Made by a program: the position numbers and the translations under genes. The notes beneath the pieces were generated by a model, which had not been told where the DNA came from, did not search any database, and worked only from the letters and a program-made list of their open reading frames with translations. This document shows positions 13,323 through 50,819 of a DNA stretch of 50,819 nucleotides, piece after piece. The stretch comes from a virus (taxonomy: Duplodnaviria; Caudoviricetes), in IMG/VR virus record IMGVR_UViG_3300037478_000628, positions 1 to 50,819 of that record; one strand, written 5' to 3'. The stretch's first letter is position 1. Every line of letters begins with the position of its first letter.

Positions 13323-13570
13323 CGGACGGCCTTGGTGAGCCGGACGTGGGCTTGGGTGATGCGCAGCAGCCGCATCATGTCGCTCATACCGTCGACTGTG
13401 AGAGCGGCGTCGACGGTGGCGGCGAACATCTCGTAGTGGACGAGCGGGTCGCGGCTGCCCGGCTCCTGTCCGGGCTGTGGGTTACGCGCGGGTCCGACCT
13501 CCGGCGGTGGTAGCTTGGCCGGTCCGGGGGACTGGCCGCCTCGGGTGCTAGGCTCGGTCTGGCTGTTCAT
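13319..13570 (-). CDS. Hypothetical protein
   Basis: AAAGGAG RBS before the ATG at 13570. Confidence 0.6.
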   Translation of the reverse strand: MNSQTEPSTRGGQSPGPAKLPPPEVGPARNPQPGQEPGSRDPLVHYEMFAATVDAALTVDGMSDMMRLLRITQAHVRLTKAVR

Positions 13571-18493: not shown

Positions 18494-18871
18494 ATGTCCA
18501 CCGATGAGTCGCTAAGTGACTACGTCGCCGCGGAGATCCGGGCGATGATCGCCCGCAAGCGCACGAGTGGGCGCGGACTGGCGGAGCGTCTGGGTGTCTC
18601 CAGGTCGTGGGTGAGCTACCGGCTCACCGGCAACACGGAGATCACCCTCACCGACCTCGAACGCATCGCCGCCGCCCTGAACGTCCAGGTTGCGGAGCTT
18701 CTCCCACCGCGGGGAGACGTCATGATGGGGCGATCTTCCCCCGCCACCCGACCGGCCACCAGGGCGCTCCCCCATCCGGCCGACCCCAGAAGTGCACGCA
18801 CCCCATCCCGCCGCCGGGCCGAGCGCCATCCACCGCGGCCGGCATGGACCCACACCCCAGCGACAGCATGA
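18494..18871 (+). CDS. Immunity repressor (Xre HTH) with a low-complexity C-terminal tail
   Basis: VAAEIRA..AR...SGR.LAERLGVSRSWVS.RL.G......DLERIA.AL.V. Confidence 0.85.
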   Translation: MSTDESLSDYVAAEIRAMIARKRTSGRGLAERLGVSRSWVSYRLTGNTEITLTDLERIAAALNVQVAELLPPRGDVMMGRSSPATRPATRALPHPADPRSARTPSRRRAERHPPRPAWTHTPATA

Positions 18872-19872
18872 GCAGCACCGGTCACCCTGAGATGATGACC
18901 TTCCCGCCCACCCCGGTCGTGCTGCCCCGGTCGTTCAGCTCCAGCCCCAACGCCACCACCACCACGCTCGGCCGGCCCGTCACCCCGGTCCGGCCACGCT
19001 CGAAGGCGGCCACCACCTCACCCACCGGCTCGTCATCCTCGAAGAAGTCATCCACAACCGCCATGGTCGCAGATCCGGCCCCCGGCGACCTTCACCACCT
19101 CGGCGCCTGGCTGAGCCACCTGGAGCTCGCCGGCCACCCGGCCACCACCGTCGCCACCTACCGGTCGGTGCTGCGCAGCGCCGCCCGGGAGCTGCCGCAC
19201 GGGCTGTGCGCCGAACCCCAGGAGATCGTCGCCTGGCTGGCCACACACCGGGCGGCGAACACCAGAGCCGGCTACGCCACCGCACTGCGCGCCTTCTACC
19301 GCTGGTGCCTGGCCGATGGGCGGATCACGGTCGACCCGACCGCCGGGCTGCCGGCGCCCCGGCAGCGACGCGGCGTACCCCGGCCGGTGACCGATGCCGA
19401 GCTCGCCGCGCTGCTCGGGCGGGCGCGGCAGCCGGTGGCGACCTGGTGTACGTTGGCCGCGTATGCCGGGTTGCGCTGCGTTGAAGTGGCAAGACTCAGG
19501 CCTGAGGACATCACCCCGGAGGTGCTGTATGTGACCGGCAAGGGCGACAAGCCGAGGGCGGTACCCACTCATCCGCTGGTGTGGGCCGCCGCCGCTGGGC
19601 TACCGCCCGGGCCGGTGGCCGGTGGCCGCACCCCGGCAACCGTCTCCCACCGGGTCTCCGCCGAGGCGCGGCGGCTGGGCCTGCCCGGGGTGACCGCCCA
19701 CCGGCTCCGCCACTGGTGCCTCACCCAGGTTCAGCGCGGCGGGGACCTGAGGGTCACCCAGGAGATCGCCGGGCACTCCTCGCCGGCGACCACCGCGGTC
19801 TACACGCAGGTGTCGGACGCGGCGAAGCGGGCGGCGGTGCTCGGGTTACCCCAGCCGACGCTCAGCCGCTAG
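18868..19872 (+). CDS. int: Tyrosine recombinase/integrase lacking an arm-binding domain (start 18868 or 19063)
   Basis: Catalytic R (GLRCVE), K (GKGDK), HRLRH, GHSS, Y (AVYT); core-binding segment T..TY...L. Confidence 0.9.
   Translation: MSSTGHPEMMTFPPTPVVLPRSFSSSPNATTTTLGRPVTPVRPRSKAATTSPTGSSSSKKSSTTAMVADPAPGDLHHLGAWLSHLELAGHPATTVATYRSVLRSAARELPHGLCAEPQEIVAWLATHRAANTRAGYATALRAFYRWCLADGRITVDPTAGLPAPRQRRGVPRPVTDAELAALLGRARQPVATWCTLAAYAGLRCVEVARLRPEDITPEVLYVTGKGDKPRAVPTHPLVWAAAAGLPPGPVAGGRTPATVSHRVSAEARRLGLPGVTAHRLRHWCLTQVQRGGDLRVTQEIAGHSSPATTAVYTQVSDAAKRAAVLGLPQPTLSR
18882..19064 (-). CDS. Small acidic protein antisense to the integrase 5' region
   Basis: DDFFEDDEPVGEVVAAFERGRTGVT; the same motif recurs in the 2526-4418 protein. 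Confidence 0.5.
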   Translation of the reverse strand: MAVVDDFFEDDEPVGEVVAAFERGRTGVTGRPSVVVVALGLELNDRGSTTGVGGKVIISG

Positions 19873-21516: not shown

Positions 21517-21750
21517 CAGCTACCCGCCTCCCCAGAACGCCAAAACCGCTACGACGATCAGCGTGTTGCCGACCACGACGATCAGGGCACTACCGGGTTG
21601 CATCGGCTCCCGCGGCTTGCCAACGCTGAGGACGGCCCCTGCCGCATTGACCGCCAGCAAGGCGACCAGTAGCCACTTCACGAGTTCAGCCATCGCTATC
21701 CCCCGTCGCCGACCGTCGTCGTCCGGCCTCCTTCCGCCAGTTGGCGCCCT
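21290..21750. repeat. 28-bp direct repeat pair (21290-21317 and 21723-21750)
   Basis: CCGGCCTCCTTCC(C/G)CCAGTTGGCGCCCT, 27/28 identical. Confidence 0.85.
21520..21693 (-). CDS. Two-TM membrane protein
   Basis: WLLVALLAVNAAGAVLSVGKPREP...ALIVVVGNTLIVVAVLAFW. Confidence 0.65.
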   Translation of the reverse strand: MAELVKWLLVALLAVNAAGAVLSVGKPREPMQPGSALIVVVGNTLIVVAVLAFWGGG

Positions 21751-21946
21751 TCCCCGGCCGCGACCGGAGCGCCTCATCCAGCCGCGCCTGAAGGTACAGC
21801 TTCTTCCGCCCGTCCAACCACGCGTCCGGCGCCAGCTTGAGCCGGGAGATCGCCGAGGTGATGGTGTGCGGGGCGAGGCCGTAGCGGGCGGCGGCCTGCT
21901 CCACGGTGAGCGCCAGCCGCCCGTCGAGCGTGATCCGGATCTTCAC
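21686..21946 (-). CDS. Excisionase/MerR-like HTH DNA-binding protein
   Basis: LTVEQAAARYGLAPHTITSAISR...LY....LD.....RPGKG. Confidence 0.65.
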   Translation of the reverse strand: MKIRITLDGRLALTVEQAAARYGLAPHTITSAISRLKLAPDAWLDGRKKLYLQARLDEALRSRPGKGANWRKEAGRRRSATGDSDG

Positions 21947-22182
21947 AGGACCACCCACCAGACGAGCAACGGCGCTACCGGTATCCCGATGATGCCCAGC
22001 AGCATTCCGAGCATCGCGACCACCGCCCGGTTGTCATACCGGTTCTGGGCCTTCTGGTCGCCAACCCTCTTTGCCTCCACGGCACTGATCCGGGCGGCCA
22101 CGGCCCAGCCGAAGCAGGCGACGGCTAGTAGTGCTGCTGCCATGGCCGACTGGGTAAGCAGCGCCCATTGCTGTCCGGTCAC
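21943..22182 (-). CDS. Two-TM membrane protein
   Basis: Two hydrophobic segments; AGGAGG RBS. Confidence 0.6.
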   Translation of the reverse strand: MTGQQWALLTQSAMAAALLAVACFGWAVAARISAVEAKRVGDQKAQNRYDNRAVVAMLGMLLGIIGIPVAPLLVWWVVL

Positions 22183-22382
22183 GTCCCCTCCTGTCCGGTG
22201 CCGACCCGCAGCACCCCAGCACCAGCGGCTAGACGCTGGTCGATTTCCTCATTGAGGTACGGGTGCTCGCGGTGGATGCCGGTCGCGTACCACCAATCCT
22301 GGCTTCCCTTGATCCATGCGAGCCCGATCTCGGCCACCACGCTGCCCTCGGGCAGCTCGGCGGCGGTTGCTGTGTCGCTCAT
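22179..22382 (-). CDS. Hypothetical protein, leaderless
   Basis: LPEGSVV...AWIK....W..TG; TATGGT 6 nt upstream of the ATG. Confidence 0.6.
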   Translation of the reverse strand: MSDTATAAELPEGSVVAEIGLAWIKGSQDWWYATGIHREHPYLNEEIDQRLAAGAGVLRVGTGQEGT

Positions 22383-22468
22383 GTTCCCACCATACACCCG
22401 GTGGCAGTCTCAACGTCGTACTCGCAGCCATAGCACGTCATCCGTTCGGGTGAACTTCCCCCAGGGAC

Positions 22469-22497
22469 TTGTGTTTGGGACCGTAGCGCTGCATACT
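22469..22497 (+). promoter_or_regulatory. SigA-type promoter for the plus-strand operon
   Basis: TTGTGT-17 nt-CATACT followed by an A-rich initiation region. Confidence 0.65.
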
Positions 22498-22528
22498 AGA
22501 GATACAAAGACATAGAGGTTCCAGGCCA

Positions 22529-22772
22529 TGCTCGGGCTGGCTGCGGGAGGCAAATCCGACGGCTCCCCCCGAAGCACCAGGACCCACCACCTGCGGTTAC
22601 GCGGCCGGCCGGGAGGCCAGGCTACGAGAGAGGCACCCGGGAGGGTGCCGAGCACACCGGATCACCGGTCACCCGCTGACGGGCGGGGCGCGCCGAGTCC
22701 CCCAAGGTCTGACGGGGCCACCGGGGGGCGGGAGCCGACACCGGCCGGCCACGTAACCGCAGGACCCACCAC
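22529..22772 (+). ncRNA. Candidate structured RNA / long 5' leader
   Basis: 23-bp closing stem (22590-22612 with 22741-22763, one mismatch) enclosing four hairpins; flanking 13-bp direct repeat; upstream stem 22529-22576. Confidence 0.55.
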
Positions 22773-22803
22773 ACTGACAGACCTACCACCGAAGGAGCCC
22801 ACC

Positions 22804-23505
22804 ATGAGCACCACACGGCATTTCCGCTACGCGCAGCAGGCCGACGGCACGATCATCATGCACACCCGCGACCACAACGACCACTGGCAGGTCTGCTGCA
22901 AGTTCGTTGAGACCGGCGAGGATGGTGGGCGGACCGCATTCCCCGGCCCGTCGCTGCGGGAGCTGACCACCGGCGCCGACGCGGTCGGGGACGCAGACGC
23001 GGACCTTGTCGCCTACCGACACATGGTCGCCTGGCAGGATGCGTGCGCCCAGTGGGGCCGGGAGCACCTGGGCGAGCGGCTGCCGCTACACCTGCTTGAG
23101 GAGTCCACCATCCCCACCGACACGAAGGAGCACACCATGAGCACCACCACCGACACCACCACCGCGCTGGCCCTGGCCGACGCGTACGACCGGCACGCAG
23201 AGGCCGGCACCCACCCCGCCCTGCCGGCCGCCATGGCCGAGCTGGGGCTGACCGACGCCACCGCAGCGACCAAGCTGCTGACCCGCGGCGCCGCGTTGCA
23301 GTGGGCTCGCGATTGGGGCCTGGACATGCTGGCGCAGCTGGCGCTGGTGCTCCCCCTGGACGCGGTTCGGGCCAACCGGCCGGCCGCCTACAGCCGGATC
23401 ACGCAGGCGCATGTGGACGAGTGGGCGCCGGAGGTGGCCGCCGCCAGCGAGACGACGGTGGCCGCGTTGCAGGAGATGCTCGCCTACGTCACCCGCACCG
23501 CTTGA
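22804..23505 (+). CDS. Hypothetical protein with an in-frame second start at 23137
   Basis: GAAGGAGC(C/A)CACCATGAGCACCAC occurs at both starts (22804 and 23137). Confidence 0.7.
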   Translation: MSTTRHFRYAQQADGTIIMHTRDHNDHWQVCCKFVETGEDGGRTAFPGPSLRELTTGADAVGDADADLVAYRHMVAWQDACAQWGREHLGERLPLHLLEESTIPTDTKEHTMSTTTDTTTALALADAYDRHAEAGTHPALPAAMAELGLTDATAATKLLTRGAALQWARDWGLDMLAQLALVLPLDAVRANRPAAYSRITQAHVDEWAPEVAAASETTVAALQEMLAYVTRTA

Positions 23506-23556
23506 CCCTGGACGCCACCGCCACCGTCGTCACCACTACCACCGAAGGGACCGATC

Positions 23557-23850
23557 GTGAAGACCTACCAGATCGACGCGAGCGGCAGTAGCCGCTTCAC
23601 CAAGATCGTCGGCGAGCTGAGGAAGCTGGCCGCCCGGCACGGCGACATCGCCACCTACGACCCCGACAACCGGCTGTGGACCGTCCGAGTGGACGACGGC
23701 GACTTCCAGGCATCCGGCGCCGTGGACTTCGCCCGGTCCGCCGGAGCGACGGTCACCGAGGCTGACACCCCGGACATGGACGGCCTGCGCGCTGAGCGGG
23801 CTCGGCTGGTCGCGCGACTCACCGAGATCGACCGCCTTCTCAGCGCCTGA
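23557..23850 (+). CDS. Hypothetical protein with a C-terminal coiled coil
   Basis: GAAGGGA RBS; YDP....W.V; LRAERARLVARLTEIDRLL. Confidence 0.75.
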   Translation: MKTYQIDASGSSRFTKIVGELRKLAARHGDIATYDPDNRLWTVRVDDGDFQASGAVDFARSAGATVTEADTPDMDGLRAERARLVARLTEIDRLLSA

Positions 23851-23934
23851 CGCTGCCCGGTCCTCACCCGCTCCGGCGGGCGGGGGCCGAGTGGCGGAAC
23901 AGACCCGCCACCCGACCAGAGAGCAGAGTAGATC

Positions 23935-24213
23935 ATGGCGACTCACATCGCGCTCGGGTTCGTCCGCGGCGCCAACAAGGTCTGGGTCCAGGTCGACTAT
24001 GACCCGGACTCGGAGTACCGGACCAGGTGGGCCTACTACACCGGCGGCACGATGGTGCGCGAGGAGTCCGGGGTCTACGGGGACCTGGACGCCATCAGCA
24101 AGCAGATGGTCGCGGCCGACTACCGGCCGGTGCCGGTGCCCTGGTACAGCGACCCGCCGCCGCCGGCCGAGCTGCTGGGCCAGCCGGTCGAGCTACGCGA
24201 GCGCGCTGCCTGA
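23935..24213 (+). CDS. Hypothetical protein
   Basis: 92-aa ORF with strong GC3 bias, followed by a terminator. Confidence 0.7.
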   Translation: MATHIALGFVRGANKVWVQVDYDPDSEYRTRWAYYTGGTMVREESGVYGDLDAISKQMVAADYRPVPVPWYSDPPPPAELLGQPVELRERAA

Positions 24214-24228
24214 CCCCGGGCACGACGA

Positions 24229-24264
24229 GGGAGCCCTCCCGGGCTGTCACCCGGGAGGGCTCCC
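24229..24264. terminator. Hairpin terminator between convergent operons
   Basis: GGGAGCCCTCCCGGG-ctgtca-CCCGGGAGGGCTCCC, perfect 15-bp stem. Confidence 0.8.
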
Positions 24265-24348
24265 ATTCACTTCGCCGCGCACCCTGCAGGGTGCAACGGA
24301 ACGGCCGTTGAGTTGTAGGTCAGGCCTGAACCGCCAACGAACGTTGCG

Positions 24349-24564
24349 TCAGGGCTGGAAGTCGCCCTTGTCGGCGTTCGGCGGCTTCGGGTCCTCGGAC
24401 TCGTTGCCGTGGCCAGCCTTGTTGACGCACACCCATCCGCCGTCGGACGGGTTGACCGCGGCCTCCTGGCCGGGTGGGCAGGTGATCGGGTCGGCCTGTG
24501 CCGGGCTTGCCGCGGCACCGACGCCGGCGGCGACCAGCGCCACGATGATGAGCAGCTTACGCAT
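24349..24564 (-). CDS. Small secreted protein (Sec signal peptide, two Cys)
   Basis: MRKLLIIVALVAAGVGAAASPAQA/DPITCPPG...WVC; GAGGAG RBS. Confidence 0.75.
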   Translation of the reverse strand: MRKLLIIVALVAAGVGAAASPAQADPITCPPGQEAAVNPSDGGWVCVNKAGHGNESEDPKPPNADKGDFQP

Positions 24565-24822: not shown

Positions 24823-24959
24823 AACAGCGCCACCAGGAGCAGGATGCACAGCGCCAGGCTGATCATCAGGATGCCGGGTCCGAAGTCAGGCCCCGGGTCA
24901 CGGATCGTCTCGGTCGTGATCCAGTCCTTGTCGCGTGGCGGCTCCTTCGGCACGCTCAC
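24819..24959 (-). CDS. Small C-terminally anchored membrane protein
   Basis: GGAGG RBS; ILMISLALCILLLVALL. Confidence 0.5.
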   Translation of the reverse strand: MSVPKEPPRDKDWITTETIRDPGPDFGPGILMISLALCILLLVALL

Positions 24960-25609
24960 CGCGGCGCCTCCCGCTCCAGCCTGGCCGCCCGGTCCGCCAT
25001 GCCCCGCAGCTCGGCCGCGGTGAGCGTGGGCAGTGGCGCCTCGTTGGCCGGCGCCAGGTAGCGCAACTTCTTGATCCGGTGTTTCCGCACGGTGTTCTCT
25101 TCGCGCGTGACGGGCTCCAGATGATCCGGGTTCACACATGACTTATTCCGGCAAAGATGATCCAGGGTCAGCCCGTCAGGGATCTTGCAGATCAACATCT
25201 CGTACGCCACGCGGTGGGCGGGCCTCATTGATCGATCAATCCCGAACATTCCGTAACCGTCACGGTTACAATACCCCAGCCATCCCCAGCAGAAACCCTG
25301 ATCTTCTACCTTGGACCAGAACCGCTTCTCATGATCCCCTTTGATGCATGAGCCGGGATCAGATGGGTCGCCATTACGCCTATACCGTGAGATGTGCGTG
25401 CTGCACCAGCCGTGGCCATGAACGAACGCCGAACATCCACCGATCTTGCAGACGTTGCGCTTAGCCCAGACGCGACTGCCGGGATAGCTGATGGTGGCAG
25501 GCCCGGGATCGCCCACCCTCTGCCACCGTTGATAGTGAGACCTGCACCAACCACGAGTGCAGTTGGGTCGTTCGCATCCGTCGATCGAGCACCGTCGGCT
25601 AGTCTCCAT
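24956..25609 (-). CDS. HNH homing endonuclease with two N-terminal zinc-finger repeats
   Basis: C...GC......GWC..H..R..R.GDP x2; RFWSKV...CW.W...GYG.F...AHR.AY...DHLC.N..CVNPDHLE. Confidence 0.9.
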   Translation of the reverse strand: METSRRCSIDGCERPNCTRGWCRSHYQRWQRVGDPGPATISYPGSRVWAKRNVCKIGGCSAFVHGHGWCSTHISRYRRNGDPSDPGSCIKGDHEKRFWSKVEDQGFCWGWLGYCNRDGYGMFGIDRSMRPAHRVAYEMLICKIPDGLTLDHLCRNKSCVNPDHLEPVTREENTVRKHRIKKLRYLAPANEAPLPTLTAAELRGMADRAARLEREAPR

Positions 25610-25737
25610 TACCAGGCCCCTTCTCGCGTCCTTCGAGTTGTGGGTCTGAGGCCCGCCCGGCGGCTGTACGCTGGGCGGCCTCGCCAACTAGTCCATTCTA
25701 CTCAGTCGCGGGGCCAGCGTTGGCCGGCCCCAGGTAG
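25042..25737. mobile_element. HNH cassette flanked by 20-bp direct repeats, inserted in the holin 3' end
   Basis: CGTTGGCCGGC(G/C)CCAGGTAG at 25042-25061 and 25718-25737; visibly lower GC inside. Confidence 0.65.
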
Positions 25738-31097: not shown

Positions 31098-31777
31098 TAG
31101 GCCAGGTAGCCTTCCAGCCACCAGCGGACGGTGGCAAAGTCGGTGGTGCCAGCCACCACGGTCACGCTGGACACGACAACGTCGCCGAGGTACTTGCCCC
31201 AGCCGAATTCGGCCCGGTGGGTGGTGTCGCCGCCGGTGGCGACCTGTGTGCTGTAAGCACGGAACGACGGGTTCATGGAGCCGTCCGTGGGTTCGATGTC
31301 CACAACGACCTTGTTCGACTCCACGGACGACCACTCCGCGACCTTGACCGCGGTGGTCGCCCCGTTGTACTCGGGGAAGTCCTGCGCGCCGGCGGCGTCC
31401 CAGGCCAAAAACCCGCGGACGTAATTCGCCCCGGTGTCGCCGTTGATCCGCAGATTCACCTGCCCTTGGCCAGTGAGGTCACCGACCAGTGTCAGGCGCA
31501 GCCGCTCGTATCCTGCCGGCACGGCGACCGTGAAGCCGCCGGCGCCGGCCGTGTCGCTGGCGATTTCCCGCCACCGGGTGGCGGCGACCGCCGCCTCCAC
31601 CACGGTCAGCCGGTCATTCAGGTCCCCGATCATGACGGCGACGATGTTGTTCACGTCGGCGTCGACCTGCTCGGCCAGGATCGGCGAGGTGCCCGCCGCC
31701 CCGCCGGTCAGCGTCCGGCCCGGCTCCGGATCCGAGGGCTGCTCGAATTCGTAGCCCCGGTTCGCAGTTTGGGGCAT
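31097..31777 (-). CDS. Minor tail protein / fibre
   Basis: MP.TAN.GY..........LAE.VD N-terminus and LR.NGD.G.NY beta domain. Confidence 0.75.
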   Translation of the reverse strand: MPQTANRGYEFEQPSDPEPGRTLTGGAAGTSPILAEQVDADVNNIVAVMIGDLNDRLTVVEAAVAATRWREIASDTAGAGGFTVAVPAGYERLRLTLVGDLTGQGQVNLRINGDTGANYVRGFLAWDAAGAQDFPEYNGATTAVKVAEWSSVESNKVVVDIEPTDGSMNPSFRAYSTQVATGGDTTHRAEFGWGKYLGDVVVSSVTVVAGTTDFATVRWWLEGYLA

Positions 31778-49281: not shown

Positions 49282-50819
49282 TCACACGAAAATGTCCGGC
49301 TCCGGTGTAACCTCCGAGCCCTTCACCACCAACCCCAGCAACGCCAACGTCACCGTGTACAACGGCCCCAACTCCGACGAGGAGCCCTTCTTCACGAACA
49401 CGAACGACCCCGCGCCCAAATCCAGACGCCGGGCCTGACCCACCGCCCGGTCCAACACCTGCTGACCCAGATGATGCAACCGCAGCCCGTCATCGAAATC
49501 CCGGCCCGGCCGCACCTCACCCGTCGCGTCGAAGAACCGGCCACACGCCCCCGCGATATCCGGCTGCGCCGGGGTGAGCACATCGATCCCCCGGTTCTTC
49601 AACGGCTGGATCAACGACGCAGCCGGCCTACGCGGGTCAACCACCACCGTCCACGGCTGGTGACCGGCGACCATCTCCACCGCCCGCCGCTCGATCCACT
49701 CCACACCGACCGCACCGATCGGCACCCGACCACCCGGCTCGGCGATCTCCACGTGATACTGGCCGTCGGCCCGGTAGCCGGCCAACCCAATCCAGCCCCG
49801 GTCCCGCTCCTCATTCATCTCAACCGCCAACGCCGGCCGGCCGGCGTTGCAACTCGCCGGGTCGTACCGTTCATCCCAGGTCAACTGAGACACCAGCGTC
49901 CACTGCGGCGTCGACTCCACCGGCTCCCACCCCAAATACTCGGCACAGAAGTCGACCAGGTCCATCGCGTCGAAGTCCTCCGCCACCACCCGCTCGGCCA
50001 CCGTCCGCCCCAACCCCGGCATCGACGCATACCAGGTCGCCGGATCCGCCGGATCAGTCCCGGCCTCCGCCGGCGGTGCGGTGAAGTCGAAGAACGCCAT
50101 CCCGTGCCGCACCCCGGCGGCGACCCGCTGCCGGCCCAGCTGACGCTTCGCCCGCAAATACGGCCACTGATCCGGCCTGGCCCTAGATAACCCGGGGATC
50201 ATGCTCAGAATCCACAGCTGCCGCCAGTCCCGTGTCATCATCGCCGGCCGCATCCCCAGCTCCGTCCGCGCGTTCGGCCGCGACCACGCCTCATCGATCA
50301 CACCCAGATCCAGCGTGTCACCCGTACCGGACGTGCGCCCCGTTGTGCTGCCGGGCGACCACATCGACTTGTTGCGCCAAACCATCGCCTCCTGGTTCAG
50401 CCGCAGCCGGTAGGAGAACTCGCGCCGGAACGGTGAGCCGTTCAACCGCTCCAAATGGATGTCACGCCACTTCTGCCTGGCCGAATCGGCCGTCTGAGCG
50501 GTGTACAGCACCCGCTGAGGCCCCGGAACCGGAACCGTCAACCCCAGCTCATCACGCACCCACCGGGTCAACGCGTCATCGAACCCGACACACCGGTGAG
50601 TCATCACCGGCAACATAAGCTCCGTCTTACCTGTGGCCTGACGCGGCCCGATCACCACCACCTCGGAGAACGCCAGCAGACCCGTCTCGCCGTCCACCTC
50701 CAACGCCACATCGGCGATCAGCTGCTGATGGGGCATCAGCGGCTTACCCAACCGGGTAGCCACCTCCGCCACCCGCGGCCCCAACGTGAACCGGTCCGGG
50801 CTACGCGGCGTCCCATACA
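49282..50819 (-). CDS. terL: Terminase large subunit (5' end continues at 128-170)
   Basis: LMPHQ, GPRQATGKT (Walker A), YTAQ, VIDEAW (Walker B), EYLG.W. Confidence 0.93.
   Translation of the reverse strand, partial: YGTPRSPDRFTLGPRVAEVATRLGKPLMPHQQLIADVALEVDGETGLLAFSEVVVIGPRQATGKTELMLPVMTHRCVGFDDALTRWVRDELGLTVPVPGPQRVLYTAQTADSARQKWRDIHLERLNGSPFRREFSYRLRLNQEAMVWRNKSMWSPGSTTGRTSGTGDTLDLGVIDEAWSRPNARTELGMRPAMMTRDWRQLWILSMIPGLSRARPDQWPYLRAKRQLGRQRVAAGVRHGMAFFDFTAPPAEAGTDPADPATWYASMPGLGRTVAERVVAEDFDAMDLVDFCAEYLGWEPVESTPQWTLVSQLTWDERYDPASCNAGRPALAVEMNEERDRGWIGLAGYRADGQYHVEIAEPGGRVPIGAVGVEWIERRAVEMVAGHQPWTVVVDPRRPAASLIQPLKNRGIDVLTPAQPDIAGACGRFFDATGEVRPGRDFDDGLRLHHLGQQVLDRAVGQARRLDLGAGSFVFVKKGSSSELGPLYTVTLALLGLVVKGSEVTPEPDIFV
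50693..50819. repeat. Terminal direct repeat, right copy
   Basis: Identical to 1-127. Confidence 0.95.

What the first reader, a model, noticed from the sequence alone, without database searches (positions are those of the whole stretch)
22498..22803. Undescribed multibranch RNA with repeated GACG-loop hairpins behind a strong promoter
Seen: about 300 nt separate the promoter from the first strong RBS. A 23-bp stem (22590-22612/22741-22763) encloses four hairpins: GGCACCC-GGGA-GGGTGCC (GNRA loop, 22632-22649), ACCGG-ATCA-CCGGT (22656-22669), CCCGCT-GACG-GGCGGG (22672-22687) and GGTCT-GACG-GGGCC (22706-22719). Two share the identical CTGACGGG cap, and a third CGACGG lies in the upstream stem domain (22529-22576). 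The GNRA loop and G-U pairs favour the plus strand. I do not recognise it as a known riboswitch, ribozyme or tRNA. Inference: a protein-binding scaffold or decoy RNA, an antitermination element for the downstream operon, or an RNase III-released small RNA. Caveat: high GC inflates chance pairing of the short stems, though not of the 23-bp stem.
Basis: partly seen in the sequence, partly recalled or inferred. Interest (0 to 1): 0.78.

Follow-up and report, generated by a model that had tools for sequence, protein, structure and literature searches.

The report
Truncated structured leader RNA of actinophage
This stretch is one phage's shortened copy of a conserved, heavily folded non-coding RNA that sits between a promoter and a swappable set of small genes in a group of uncultured high-GC phages; it is real and uncatalogued, but what it does is still a guess.

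Summary
Every hairpin is at the stated coordinates. The 23-bp stem (one C·A mismatch) is the only long, near-perfect distant inverted repeat in this 50.8-kb phage genome. The stretch is non-coding and matches no Rfam family. 14 IMG/VR phage contigs carry a homologous leader behind a promoter-like site (seen in the 13 with upstream sequence), ahead of differing first genes. The full leader is modular: a small junction ("domain 0"), a long hairpin ("domain A"), then the finding's "domain B".

Domain B is 92-94% conserved. It therefore shows no covariation above shuffles, but its stems change only by transitions. Domain A covaries clearly. The "repeated GACG loop" is not conserved: hairpin 3's loop is reverse-complemented in 6 of 9 copies. 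Thermodynamics cannot pick the strand; promoter position and a GNRA loop favour plus.

Best reading: a leader RNA whose long helices are RNase III-type processing stalks. The nearest actinophage parallel is the stable Pleft non-coding RNA of mycobacteriophage L5/D29. No expression data exist. This scan found the family before on other DNA (e1-3485187).

The parts
22469..22497 (+). Promoter-like site: TTGTGT (22469-22474), 17-nt spacer, CATACT (22492-22497)
   Evidence: Read. A TTGnnn-16/17-(T/C)AnnnT motif lies at the same relative place in the window and in the 13 relatives that have upstream sequence; the spacers differ. It matches only 7 of 12 consensus positions, and the consensus scan found no promoter. 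Inferred, not shown.
22498..22526 (+). A-rich 5' end of the leader, up to the deletion junction
   Evidence: Aligns with the 5' leader of L014 and L020. A 110-nt gap relative to L014 begins after 22526.
22527..22581 (+). Remnant of domain A: its 3' half only, including the 3' arm of A's closing stem (22560-22581).
   Evidence: Aligns with the 3' half of domain A of the relatives. The 5' partner arm is absent from the window.
22578..22590 (+). First copy of the 13-nt direct repeat CAGGACCCACCAC (end of A's stem plus linker)
   Evidence: family D1. The second copy is at 22760-22772.
22590..22763 (+). Domain B: 23-bp closing helix (22590-22612 with 22741-22763) enclosing hairpins H1 22632-22649 (GNRA loop), H2 22656-22669, H3 22672-22687, and H4 22706-22719 nested in helix 22697-22703/22723-22729
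   Evidence: Present at 91-97% pairwise identity in 8 other phage contigs.
22760..22772 (+). Second copy of the 13-nt direct repeat
   Evidence: family D1.
22764..22803 (+). C/A-rich unstructured linker with the RBS GAAGGAG (22791-22797)
   Evidence: 22764-22830 folds at only -5.9 kcal/mol, z -0.12. The RBS is not sequestered.
22804..23505 (+). First gene of the variable small-gene cassette, with an in-frame second RBS and ATG at 23137
   Evidence: GC3 is 0.89-0.93. No Pfam or PHROG hit. Relatives have other first genes.

Best explanation
The stretch is this temperate actinophage's copy of a conserved, modular, non-coding leader RNA.

The RNA is transcribed rightwards from the promoter-like site at 22469-22497 into a short, highly variable cassette of small genes (22804-24213). 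The window's copy has lost 110 nt, so only the 3' half of A and an intact B remain.

Proposed mechanism (inferred, not shown). The ~18-25-bp near-perfect closing helices act as processing stalks for host RNase III, in the way that rRNA and the early leaders of T7 and lambda N are cut. Cleavage would release the folded domain(s) as discrete stable RNA. It would also separate them from the downstream mRNA, whose C/A-rich linker and RBS are left unstructured and open for translation. The leader therefore works as a generic expression and processing module for whichever genes sit behind it, not as a gene-specific switch.
For: **Not coding.** Flat GC by codon position, a non-conserved ATG, and 1-nt indels among relatives.

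**Conserved.** 14 IMG/VR contigs carry a homologous leader. A promoter-like site precedes it in the 13 that have upstream sequence. The first genes differ. Leader type is linked neither to spacer/operator type nor to the first gene, which argues for a generic role.

**Sequence constraint on domain B.** Mean pairwise identity is 94.2%, against 87.9% for the nearest conserved coding gene (10 pairs among 5 phages).

**Structural constraint on domain B.** 11 of 114 paired columns vary, all by transitions. 17 of 63 unpaired columns vary, including 6 transversion and 5 indel columns (Fisher p 0.0009). The H1 loop stays GNRA: GGGA in 8 copies, GGAA in 1.

**The sister domain covaries.** In domain A, 11 of 39 pairs change on both sides. 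0 of 500 shuffles reach the observed values on three measures, and slid controls give 0-1 such pairs.

**Same design, different sequence.** Type II phages have an unrelated 24-bp closing stem, and type III an 18-bp one.

**Compatible with processing.** The closing helices are long enough for RNase III. The RBS region is unstructured.

**Precedent.**
- RNase III cuts lambda (including the N-gene leader), T7 and T3 transcripts (PMC5371410, introduction passages and reference list seen).
- In mycobacteriophages L5, D29 and StarStuff, a ~500-nt non-coding region lies between the repressor-controlled early promoter Pleft and the first gene. It is the most abundant, stable transcript and is processed to smaller species (PMC5712189, abstract and passages seen).
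Against: - **No expression data.** No run listed as RNA holds the stretch, so the transcript, its ends and any cleavage are all unshown.
- **No covariation in domain B.** 47 of 57 pairs never vary, and 283 of 500 shuffles reach the observed score.
- **A·C mismatches on the + strand.** The long stem of B carries them at 3 positions, in 1 to 5 of the 9 copies each. On the - strand these would be G·U. The - strand folds as well as the + strand.
- **Upstream modules may be dispensable.** The window's phage lacks domain 0 and half of A, so either they are dispensable or this copy is impaired.
- **Interior conservation is unexplained.** A simple RNase III site would not need a 128-nt interior this well conserved, loops and linkers included.
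- **Weak promoter match.** The window's promoter fits the consensus poorly.
- **Host unknown.** The phage encodes no RNase III. A host enzyme is assumed; the Pfam model does ring in the Corynebacterium glutamicum control genome.
Confidence: 0.4

Rival explanations
1. Trans-acting stable non-coding RNA. The folded domain(s) are themselves the product, for example a sponge or decoy for a host RNA-binding protein or defence factor, or a host-directed regulator like the toxic, abundant Pleft RNA of L5/D29. The cassette genes merely share its promoter.
For: The leader is the conserved part and the genes behind it vary. The interior loops and linkers of domain B are conserved in sequence, 94.2% against 87.9% for a neighbouring gene. 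Alternative modules are swapped between phages, as expected under an arms race. The L5, D29 and StarStuff precedent exists (PMC5712189, passages seen), and the L5 region also folds far better than shuffles (z -5.23).
Against: No partner, target or transcript is known. No significant antisense target for the leader exists in the phage genome: the best opposite-strand match is 17 nt at 94%, E 0.19. The 'repeated GACG loop' binding motif is not conserved. There is no sequence similarity to the L5 RNA.
Confidence: 0.2
2. Transcription-level control element. The leader either modifies RNA polymerase for processive antitermination (like HK022 put RNA), or acts as an attenuator that stops most transcripts before the cassette, as seen downstream of L5 Pleft.
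For: It lies directly behind the promoter and upstream of a cassette with strong internal hairpins (23848-23937, z -3.54) and a 15-bp terminal hairpin at 24229-24264. In L5, transcript levels fall by more than 90% after the non-coding region without a canonical terminator (PMC5712189, passage seen).
Against: No U-tract follows either long helix, and the terminator scan lists nothing in the leader. Domain 0, the most put-like two-hairpin part, is missing from the window. The HK022 put comparison is recalled, not tested.
Confidence: 0.15
3. DNA-level element. Domain B is a miniature inverted-repeat insertion (23-bp terminal inverted repeats with a 13-nt duplicated target), or another recombination or cruciform site, rather than an RNA.
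For: A 13-nt direct repeat flanks the inverted repeat in the window and in L014. A different 10-nt repeat flanks it in L007 exactly, and in L020 with one mismatch. Stems tolerate both kinds of transition mismatch, as a strand-neutral DNA hairpin would. The H3 loop has flipped orientation more than once, which is a DNA-level event.
Against: There is no second copy in this genome and none in 5 related phage records, 3 of them complete. No homologue turned up among the 120 metagenome loci or 10 genome loci that share 17- to 21-mers. No empty-site variant was seen. 4 of 9 copies have no flanking repeat, and the repeat sequence differs between phages, which a single insertion does not explain. Both domains A and B end in CAGG followed by a linker, so the repeat is also explained by two like modules in tandem. 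The GNRA loop and the invariant U·G pair are RNA-type features.
Confidence: 0.08
4. The functional fold is on the minus strand, for example a processing or 3'-end structure for read-through of the leftward late operon.
For: Three positions of B's long stem (and one of A's) are A·C on + but G·U on - in many copies. The - strand MFE is equal or lower in 7 of 9 copies.
Against: No promoter-like element is conserved to the right of the element. The sequence there differs between phages, and a strong hairpin at 24229-24264 lies between it and the leftward late genes. G·U on + (A·C on -) occurs at 6 variable pairs and 2 invariant pairs in B. By my hand tally of helix-internal positions across all modules, + is favoured 12 to 5 (binomial p 0.07). 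The GNRA loop reads UCCC on the - strand.
Confidence: 0.05

Closest known systems
Pleft non-coding RNA of Cluster A mycobacteriophages L5, D29 and StarStuff (PMC5712189; abstract and passages seen)
   Same: Both are in temperate actinophages. In both, several hundred nucleotides with no credible ORF lie directly between a promoter and the first small gene. The L5 RNA is abundant, stable and processed to smaller species. The L5 region also folds far better than shuffles (z -5.23). The function is unknown in both.
   Different: There is no sequence similarity: blastn of 22384-22803 found nothing in 50,697 phage records, a collection that includes L5. L5's Pleft heads the main early operon, whereas here the promoter heads a 1-5 gene cassette. 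I saw no 23-bp closing helices in the L5 fold. Expression, stability and toxicity are untested here.
RNase III-processed early leaders of coliphages: lambda N-gene leader, T7 and T3 early RNAs (PMC5371410, introduction passage and reference list seen; details of the sites recalled)
   Same: A long double-stranded helix lies in the untranslated leader between an early promoter and the first gene. The helix length is compatible with RNase III.
   Different: Those sites are single irregular hairpins. Here the helix closes a conserved 128-nt multi-hairpin interior, and leaders carry one or two such domains. Cleavage is not shown, and the host is an unknown actinobacterium.
rRNA processing stalks (leader-trailer helices cut by RNase III; established knowledge, recalled)
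   Same: A long helix formed by flanking sequences encloses a folded RNA that is released as a stable product.
   Different: Scale and content differ: about 130 nt enclosed here. No evidence that the enclosed RNA is stable or functional.
HK022 put antiterminator RNA (recalled; no model available in these tools)
   Same: A cis-acting folded RNA just downstream of a phage early promoter.
   Different: put is about 70 nt with two hairpins. The part of this family most like that (domain 0) is deleted in the window. No test was possible.
Miniature inverted-repeat transposable elements (MITEs)
   Same: Terminal inverted repeats of 23 bp with a flanking direct repeat in the window.
   Different: Single copy per genome, always at one locus. 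The flanking repeat is absent or different in other phages. No empty site was found.

Membership tests
Any Rfam 15 family (riboswitch, ribozyme, sRNA, tRNA-like) | Covariance-model match at or near the family's gathering score | tested here: not met
   0 matches at gathering on the whole window. 0 matches at E<=10 on 22380-22830. ARAGORN finds no tRNA or tmRNA here.
Riboswitch (generic) | Aptamer closed by a short switchable P1, coupled to an expression platform (terminator or RBS-sequestering helix) | tested here: not met
   The closing helix is 23 bp. The RBS region is unstructured, -5.9 kcal/mol and z -0.12. No U-tract terminator lies in the leader.
RNase III processing site | About two turns (~20 bp) or more of near-perfect double-stranded RNA | tested here: met
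   23 bp at 96% in the window. About 22 bp in domain A, 24 bp in type II and 18 bp in type III relatives.
RNase III processing site | Staggered cleavage in the helix, dependent on rnc | not testable with these tools
   No RNA data; no RNA holder listed. The host is unknown.
MITE / small mobile insertion | Terminal inverted repeats | tested here: met
   pair I1.
MITE / small mobile insertion | Target-site duplication of constant length flanking every copy | tested here: inconclusive
   A 13-nt repeat flanks the element in the window and L014. A different 10-nt repeat flanks it in L007, and in L020 with 1 mismatch. L022 has a partial repeat. L005, L010, L021 and L017 have none.
MITE / small mobile insertion | Multiple copies at different loci, and empty sites | tested here: not met
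   The only other hits in the own genome are the arms themselves and a 21-nt RBS repeat. 0 of 5 related records hold another copy. All 9 copies lie at the same locus.
Protein-coding gene from the 22528 ATG | Codon-position GC periodicity, a conserved start, and frame-preserving indels | tested here: not met
   GC by position is 0.72/0.74/0.74. The ATG is present in 4 of 8 relatives. 1-nt indels occur at alignment columns 41, 80, 122-123 and 138.
L5/D29-type Pleft non-coding RNA | Non-coding region directly between a regulated early promoter and the first gene | tested here: met
   The architecture is seen in the window and 13 relatives. A perfect palindrome with arms of at least 6 bp overlaps the promoter spacer in 3 of these relatives. 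Regulation itself is inferred.
L5/D29-type Pleft non-coding RNA | Sequence homology to the L5/D29 RNA | tested here: not met
   No blastn match in the phage collection, which holds L5.
L5/D29-type Pleft non-coding RNA | High abundance, stability and processing of the RNA | not testable with these tools
   No RNA data.

The most novel reading that the evidence does not exclude
The long helices are excision stalks, and the released ~130-170-nt domains are stand-alone phage RNAs that act in trans on the host, for example by titrating a host RNA-binding or defence protein. Alternative domains (type I, II and III) would be swapped between phages as interchangeable RNA 'payloads'. That would make this a modular, RNA-based counterpart of the protein-coding moron cassettes behind it, and a tractable relative of the unexplained toxic Pleft RNA of mycobacteriophages.
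Probability: 0.15. Interest if true: 0.75.

Novelty: new variant of a known kind. Interest (0 to 1): 0.5.

Why it matters
Long, stable, non-coding RNAs made from early promoters of actinophages are known from L5 and D29, but what they do is unexplained. This family gives a second, unrelated example with a clear modular anatomy, natural domain swaps and a natural deletion variant (this window). That makes questions about processing, stability and trans effects directly testable with reporter and rnc-mutant experiments. It is also an uncatalogued candidate for Rfam. If the domains prove to be no more than processing signals, the finding is an ordinary though new leader element.

Tried and rejected
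**Expression.** The look-up of sequencing runs listed 5 DNA runs from sediment metagenomes and no RNA holder, so read laying was not used and nothing can be said about expression.

**More homologues.**
It returned 120 loci, and blastn found 0 homologues among them.
- Two genome-contig scans gave 0 loci and 10 loci. The 10 share only the 21-mer.
- A blastn-type search of 401 genomes of the family that contains one of those chance hits gave one 61-nt match at 80% identity, taken as chance.
- A further viral scan added no new contig.
- The host and any prophage copies therefore remain unknown.

**Cultured relatives.** None were found by DNA search. TerL is at most 25.6% identical to TerL of isolated actinophages.

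**Antisense target idea (P4 CI / P1 C4-like).** blastn-short of the leader against the genome gave only chance-level matches, so I dropped it.

**Riboswitch, tRNA-like, ribozyme.** Rejected.

**attP.** No host match and no tRNA-like core; not pursued.

**Origin of replication or packaging site.** Not supported by the anatomy; not tested.

**Phage-encoded RNase III.** None.

**Cassette proteins.** No Pfam or PHROG family. The Atlas gave only sub-threshold leads: Imm5_like/YdhT_N at scores <=0.81, and a WGR-like fold at TM 0.57 on a low-confidence model.

**Literature.** Searches for a published description of this RNA found none. Supplements were not consulted.

Full report
**What the window is.** The window is a complete virus record of 50,819 bp with direct terminal repeats and 69.7% G+C.
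- Most genes lie on the minus strand.
- It encodes a tyrosine integrase (within 18607-19872, +), an HTH/excisionase-like protein (21686-21958, -), an HNH endonuclease (24956-25687, -) and a large terminase (49282-50784, -). The terminase is at most 25.6% identical to those of isolated actinophages.
- It is therefore a temperate actinophage with no cultured close relative.
- The finding lies in the 421-bp gap between a leftward gene starting at 22382 and a short rightward island of small genes, 22804-24213.

- Every hairpin is at the stated coordinates.
- The 23-nt arms are 96% complementary; the single mismatch is C·A on the + strand.
- The 306 nt fold at -149.9 kcal/mol, z -3.96, with 0 of 100 shuffles as good.
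- Genome-wide, this is the only near-perfect inverted repeat with distant arms.
- The stretch is non-coding on every frame. GC by codon position is flat at 0.72/0.74/0.74, then jumps to 0.68/0.48/0.89 at 22804.
- No Rfam family matches, even at E<=10.

**It belongs to a family.**
- Scans of IMG/VR with short patterns from the stem, from the 3' multiloop, from the upstream gene's protein, and from a 5' motif seen in the first relatives recovered 14 other phage contigs with a homologous leader.
- The window and the 13 relatives that have upstream sequence all carry a TTGnnn-16/17-(T/C)AnnnT motif at the same place. The spacers differ, and in 3 relatives the spacer holds a perfect palindrome with arms of at least 6 bp.
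- Downstream, the first gene differs from phage to phage. The island holds 1-5 small genes. Where the fetched sequence reaches the end of the island, it abuts a convergent small secreted-protein gene in most phages, followed by further small minus-strand genes that look like the lysis genes; these are unannotated and the lysis assignment is my reading.
- Leader type is linked neither to the promoter spacer nor to the first gene.

**The full leader is modular.**
- Domain 0 is a small junction of two hairpins. In 12 sequences it has 13 pairs, 2 with changes on both sides.
- Domain A is a rod-like hairpin closed by a ~22-bp helix. In 8 type I sequences, 11 of 39 pairs change on both sides while staying paired. 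0 of 500 shuffles reach the observed percentage paired, number of double-changed pairs or covariation score, and slid controls give 0-1 such pairs. The tool warns that related sequences can exceed shuffles without structure, but the slid controls keep relatedness.
It occurs in 9 contigs, the window included.
- Three other phages (type II) have in its place an unrelated sequence closed by a perfect 24-bp stem. Three more (type III) have one different domain with an 18-bp stem.
- None of 5 type II/III records, 3 of them complete, holds type I domain B elsewhere.

**The window's copy is truncated.** Against its closest relative L014 it lacks 110 nt after 22526. Whether the deletion is neutral, impairing or an assembly artefact cannot be told.

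**Evidence for and against the fold of domain B.**
- Covariation is uninformative. Of 57 pairs, 47 never vary, 97.5% of cells are paired, and 283 of 500 shuffles reach the observed covariation score.
- Only one pair (alignment columns 15/173) shows A-U and G-C, each in 2 copies, with A·C in the other 5.
- The pattern of change is non-random all the same. 11 of 114 paired columns vary, all by transitions. 17 of 63 unpaired columns vary, including 6 transversion and 5 indel columns (Fisher p 0.0009). Six of those unpaired columns are a single loop-inversion event; without them the contrast remains, by my reading of the same output.
- Domain B is also more conserved than the nearest conserved coding gene: mean pairwise identity 94.2% against 87.9%, 10 pairs among the 5 phages where my pattern found that gene out of 7 tried.

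**The 'GACG loop' motif is not conserved.** The H3 loop reads TGACGG in the window, L007 and L022, but its exact reverse complement in the other 6 copies. The distribution does not follow the other substitutions, which implies repeated flips or recombination. The third CGACGG, in A's remnant, is CGATCGG in 5 relatives. In the flipped copies the H3 loop is complementary to the H4 loop, so a kissing contact is possible there but not in the window. This is unexplained.

**Which strand folds.**
- Energy does not decide: domain B gives -113.8 kcal/mol on both strands, z -5.04 and -5.23.
- Single-sided changes keep G·U on + at 6 pairs and leave A·C on + (G·U on -) at 4 pairs. Two further U·G pairs are invariant on +.
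- My hand tally of helix-internal positions over all modules gives 12 favouring + and 5 favouring - (p 0.07).
- The + strand is favoured mainly by the promoter-like site, conserved in position ahead of every copy that has upstream sequence. It is also favoured by the lack of any conserved sequence to the right of the element, and by the H1 loop staying GNRA (GGGA or GGAA).

**What it is not.**
- It is not a riboswitch-type switch: the closing helix is 23 bp, and the RBS region 22764-22830 is unstructured.
The flanking repeat differs between phages or is absent. Both A and B end in CAGG followed by a similar linker, which explains the repeat as two like modules in tandem. That the two linkers match within a phage in about half the copies remains unexplained.

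**Mechanism.** Nothing about function was shown.
- I commit to a generic leader whose long helices are processing stalks for host RNase III. Cleavage would release the folded domain(s) and leave an open, C/A-rich translation start. This fits the helix lengths, the modularity and the independence from the downstream genes.
- It follows established phage practice in lambda, T7 and T3 (PMC5371410, passages seen).
- The closest actinophage parallel is the ~500-nt stable, abundant, processed and toxic non-coding RNA made from Pleft in L5, D29 and StarStuff, whose role is also unknown (PMC5712189, abstract and passages seen). The L5 region folds at z -5.23 but shares no sequence with this family.
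- The strong conservation of B's interior suggests it does more than mark a cleavage site, which keeps the trans-acting RNA reading alive.

**Earlier notes of this scan.** A follow-up agent working on another genome (e1-3485187) described the same family as a modular structured leader and reached the same comparison with the lambda and T7 leaders. Two first-reader notes (e1-6335357, e1-6330034) describe relatives. I reached the family independently through before seeing them. Their agreement is not independent evidence.

**Verdict.** This is a real, conserved, uncatalogued structured leader RNA family. The window holds a 5'-truncated copy. Function is unproven, and interest is moderate.

Noticed in passing
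window 22526/22527: A 110-nt deletion relative to the closest relative (L014) removes domain 0 and the 5' half of domain A of the leader. It is a natural deletion variant, or possibly an assembly artefact.
   Followed up: partly
window 22672-22687 and the same hairpin in L005, L007, L010, L014, L017, L020, L021, L022: The 6-nt loop of hairpin 3 is exactly reverse-complemented in 6 of 9 copies, in a pattern that does not follow the other substitutions (recurrent flips or recombination). In the flipped form it is complementary to the loop of hairpin 4.
   Followed up: partly
window 22578-22590 and 22760-22772; L007, L014, L020: The linker after domain A matches the linker after domain B within a phage, but the linker differs between phages (ACCCACCAC in some, ACAGCA in others). 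No explanation accounts for this co-variation of the two linkers.
   Followed up: partly
window 22790-22814 and 23123-23147; L005, L007, L008, L010: A ~25-45-nt RBS-plus-start module (CGAAGGAGC.CACCATGAGCACCAC) recurs before several genes of the cassette. In the window it lies in frame inside 22804-23505, giving either a nested start or an N-terminal extension. In L022 and L023 the homologue of 23137-23505 is the first gene. The module may be a recombination junction for swapping cassettes.
   Followed up: partly
window 22804-24349; relatives: The island behind the leader is a hypervariable slot of 1-5 small genes, some membrane-anchored. It lies between the leader and a conserved convergent 71-aa secreted-protein gene (24349-24564) plus putative lysis genes. 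The position resembles the prophage-expressed variable regions of some mycobacteriophages (that comparison is recalled).
   Followed up: partly
window 24229-24264: A perfect 15-bp GC-rich hairpin lies between the convergent ends of the island and the leftward late genes (z -3.93). It is a likely two-way terminator.
   Followed up: partly
window 23848-23937: Two strong hairpins without a U-tract lie between the third and fourth island genes (z -3.54, 0 of 200 shuffles as good).
   Followed up: partly
window 13431-13511 and 31216-31311: ARAGORN calls a tRNA-Arg(CCT) and a 96-nt tRNA-Tyr(GTA) on the + strand, inside regions where my GC3 screen places minus-strand genes. They are probably false positives.
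   Followed up: no
window 23137-23505 and 23935-24213: Sub-threshold Atlas leads only. The 122-aa protein sits near phage clusters carrying Imm5_like/YdhT_N (scores <=0.81). The 92-aa protein has a WGR-like fold at TM 0.57 on a low-confidence model.
   Followed up: no
L184 (mycobacteriophage L5, 51083-51672, bottom strand): The published Pleft non-coding region of L5 folds at z -5.23 (0 of 100 shuffles as good), so it is also strongly structured.
   Followed up: partly
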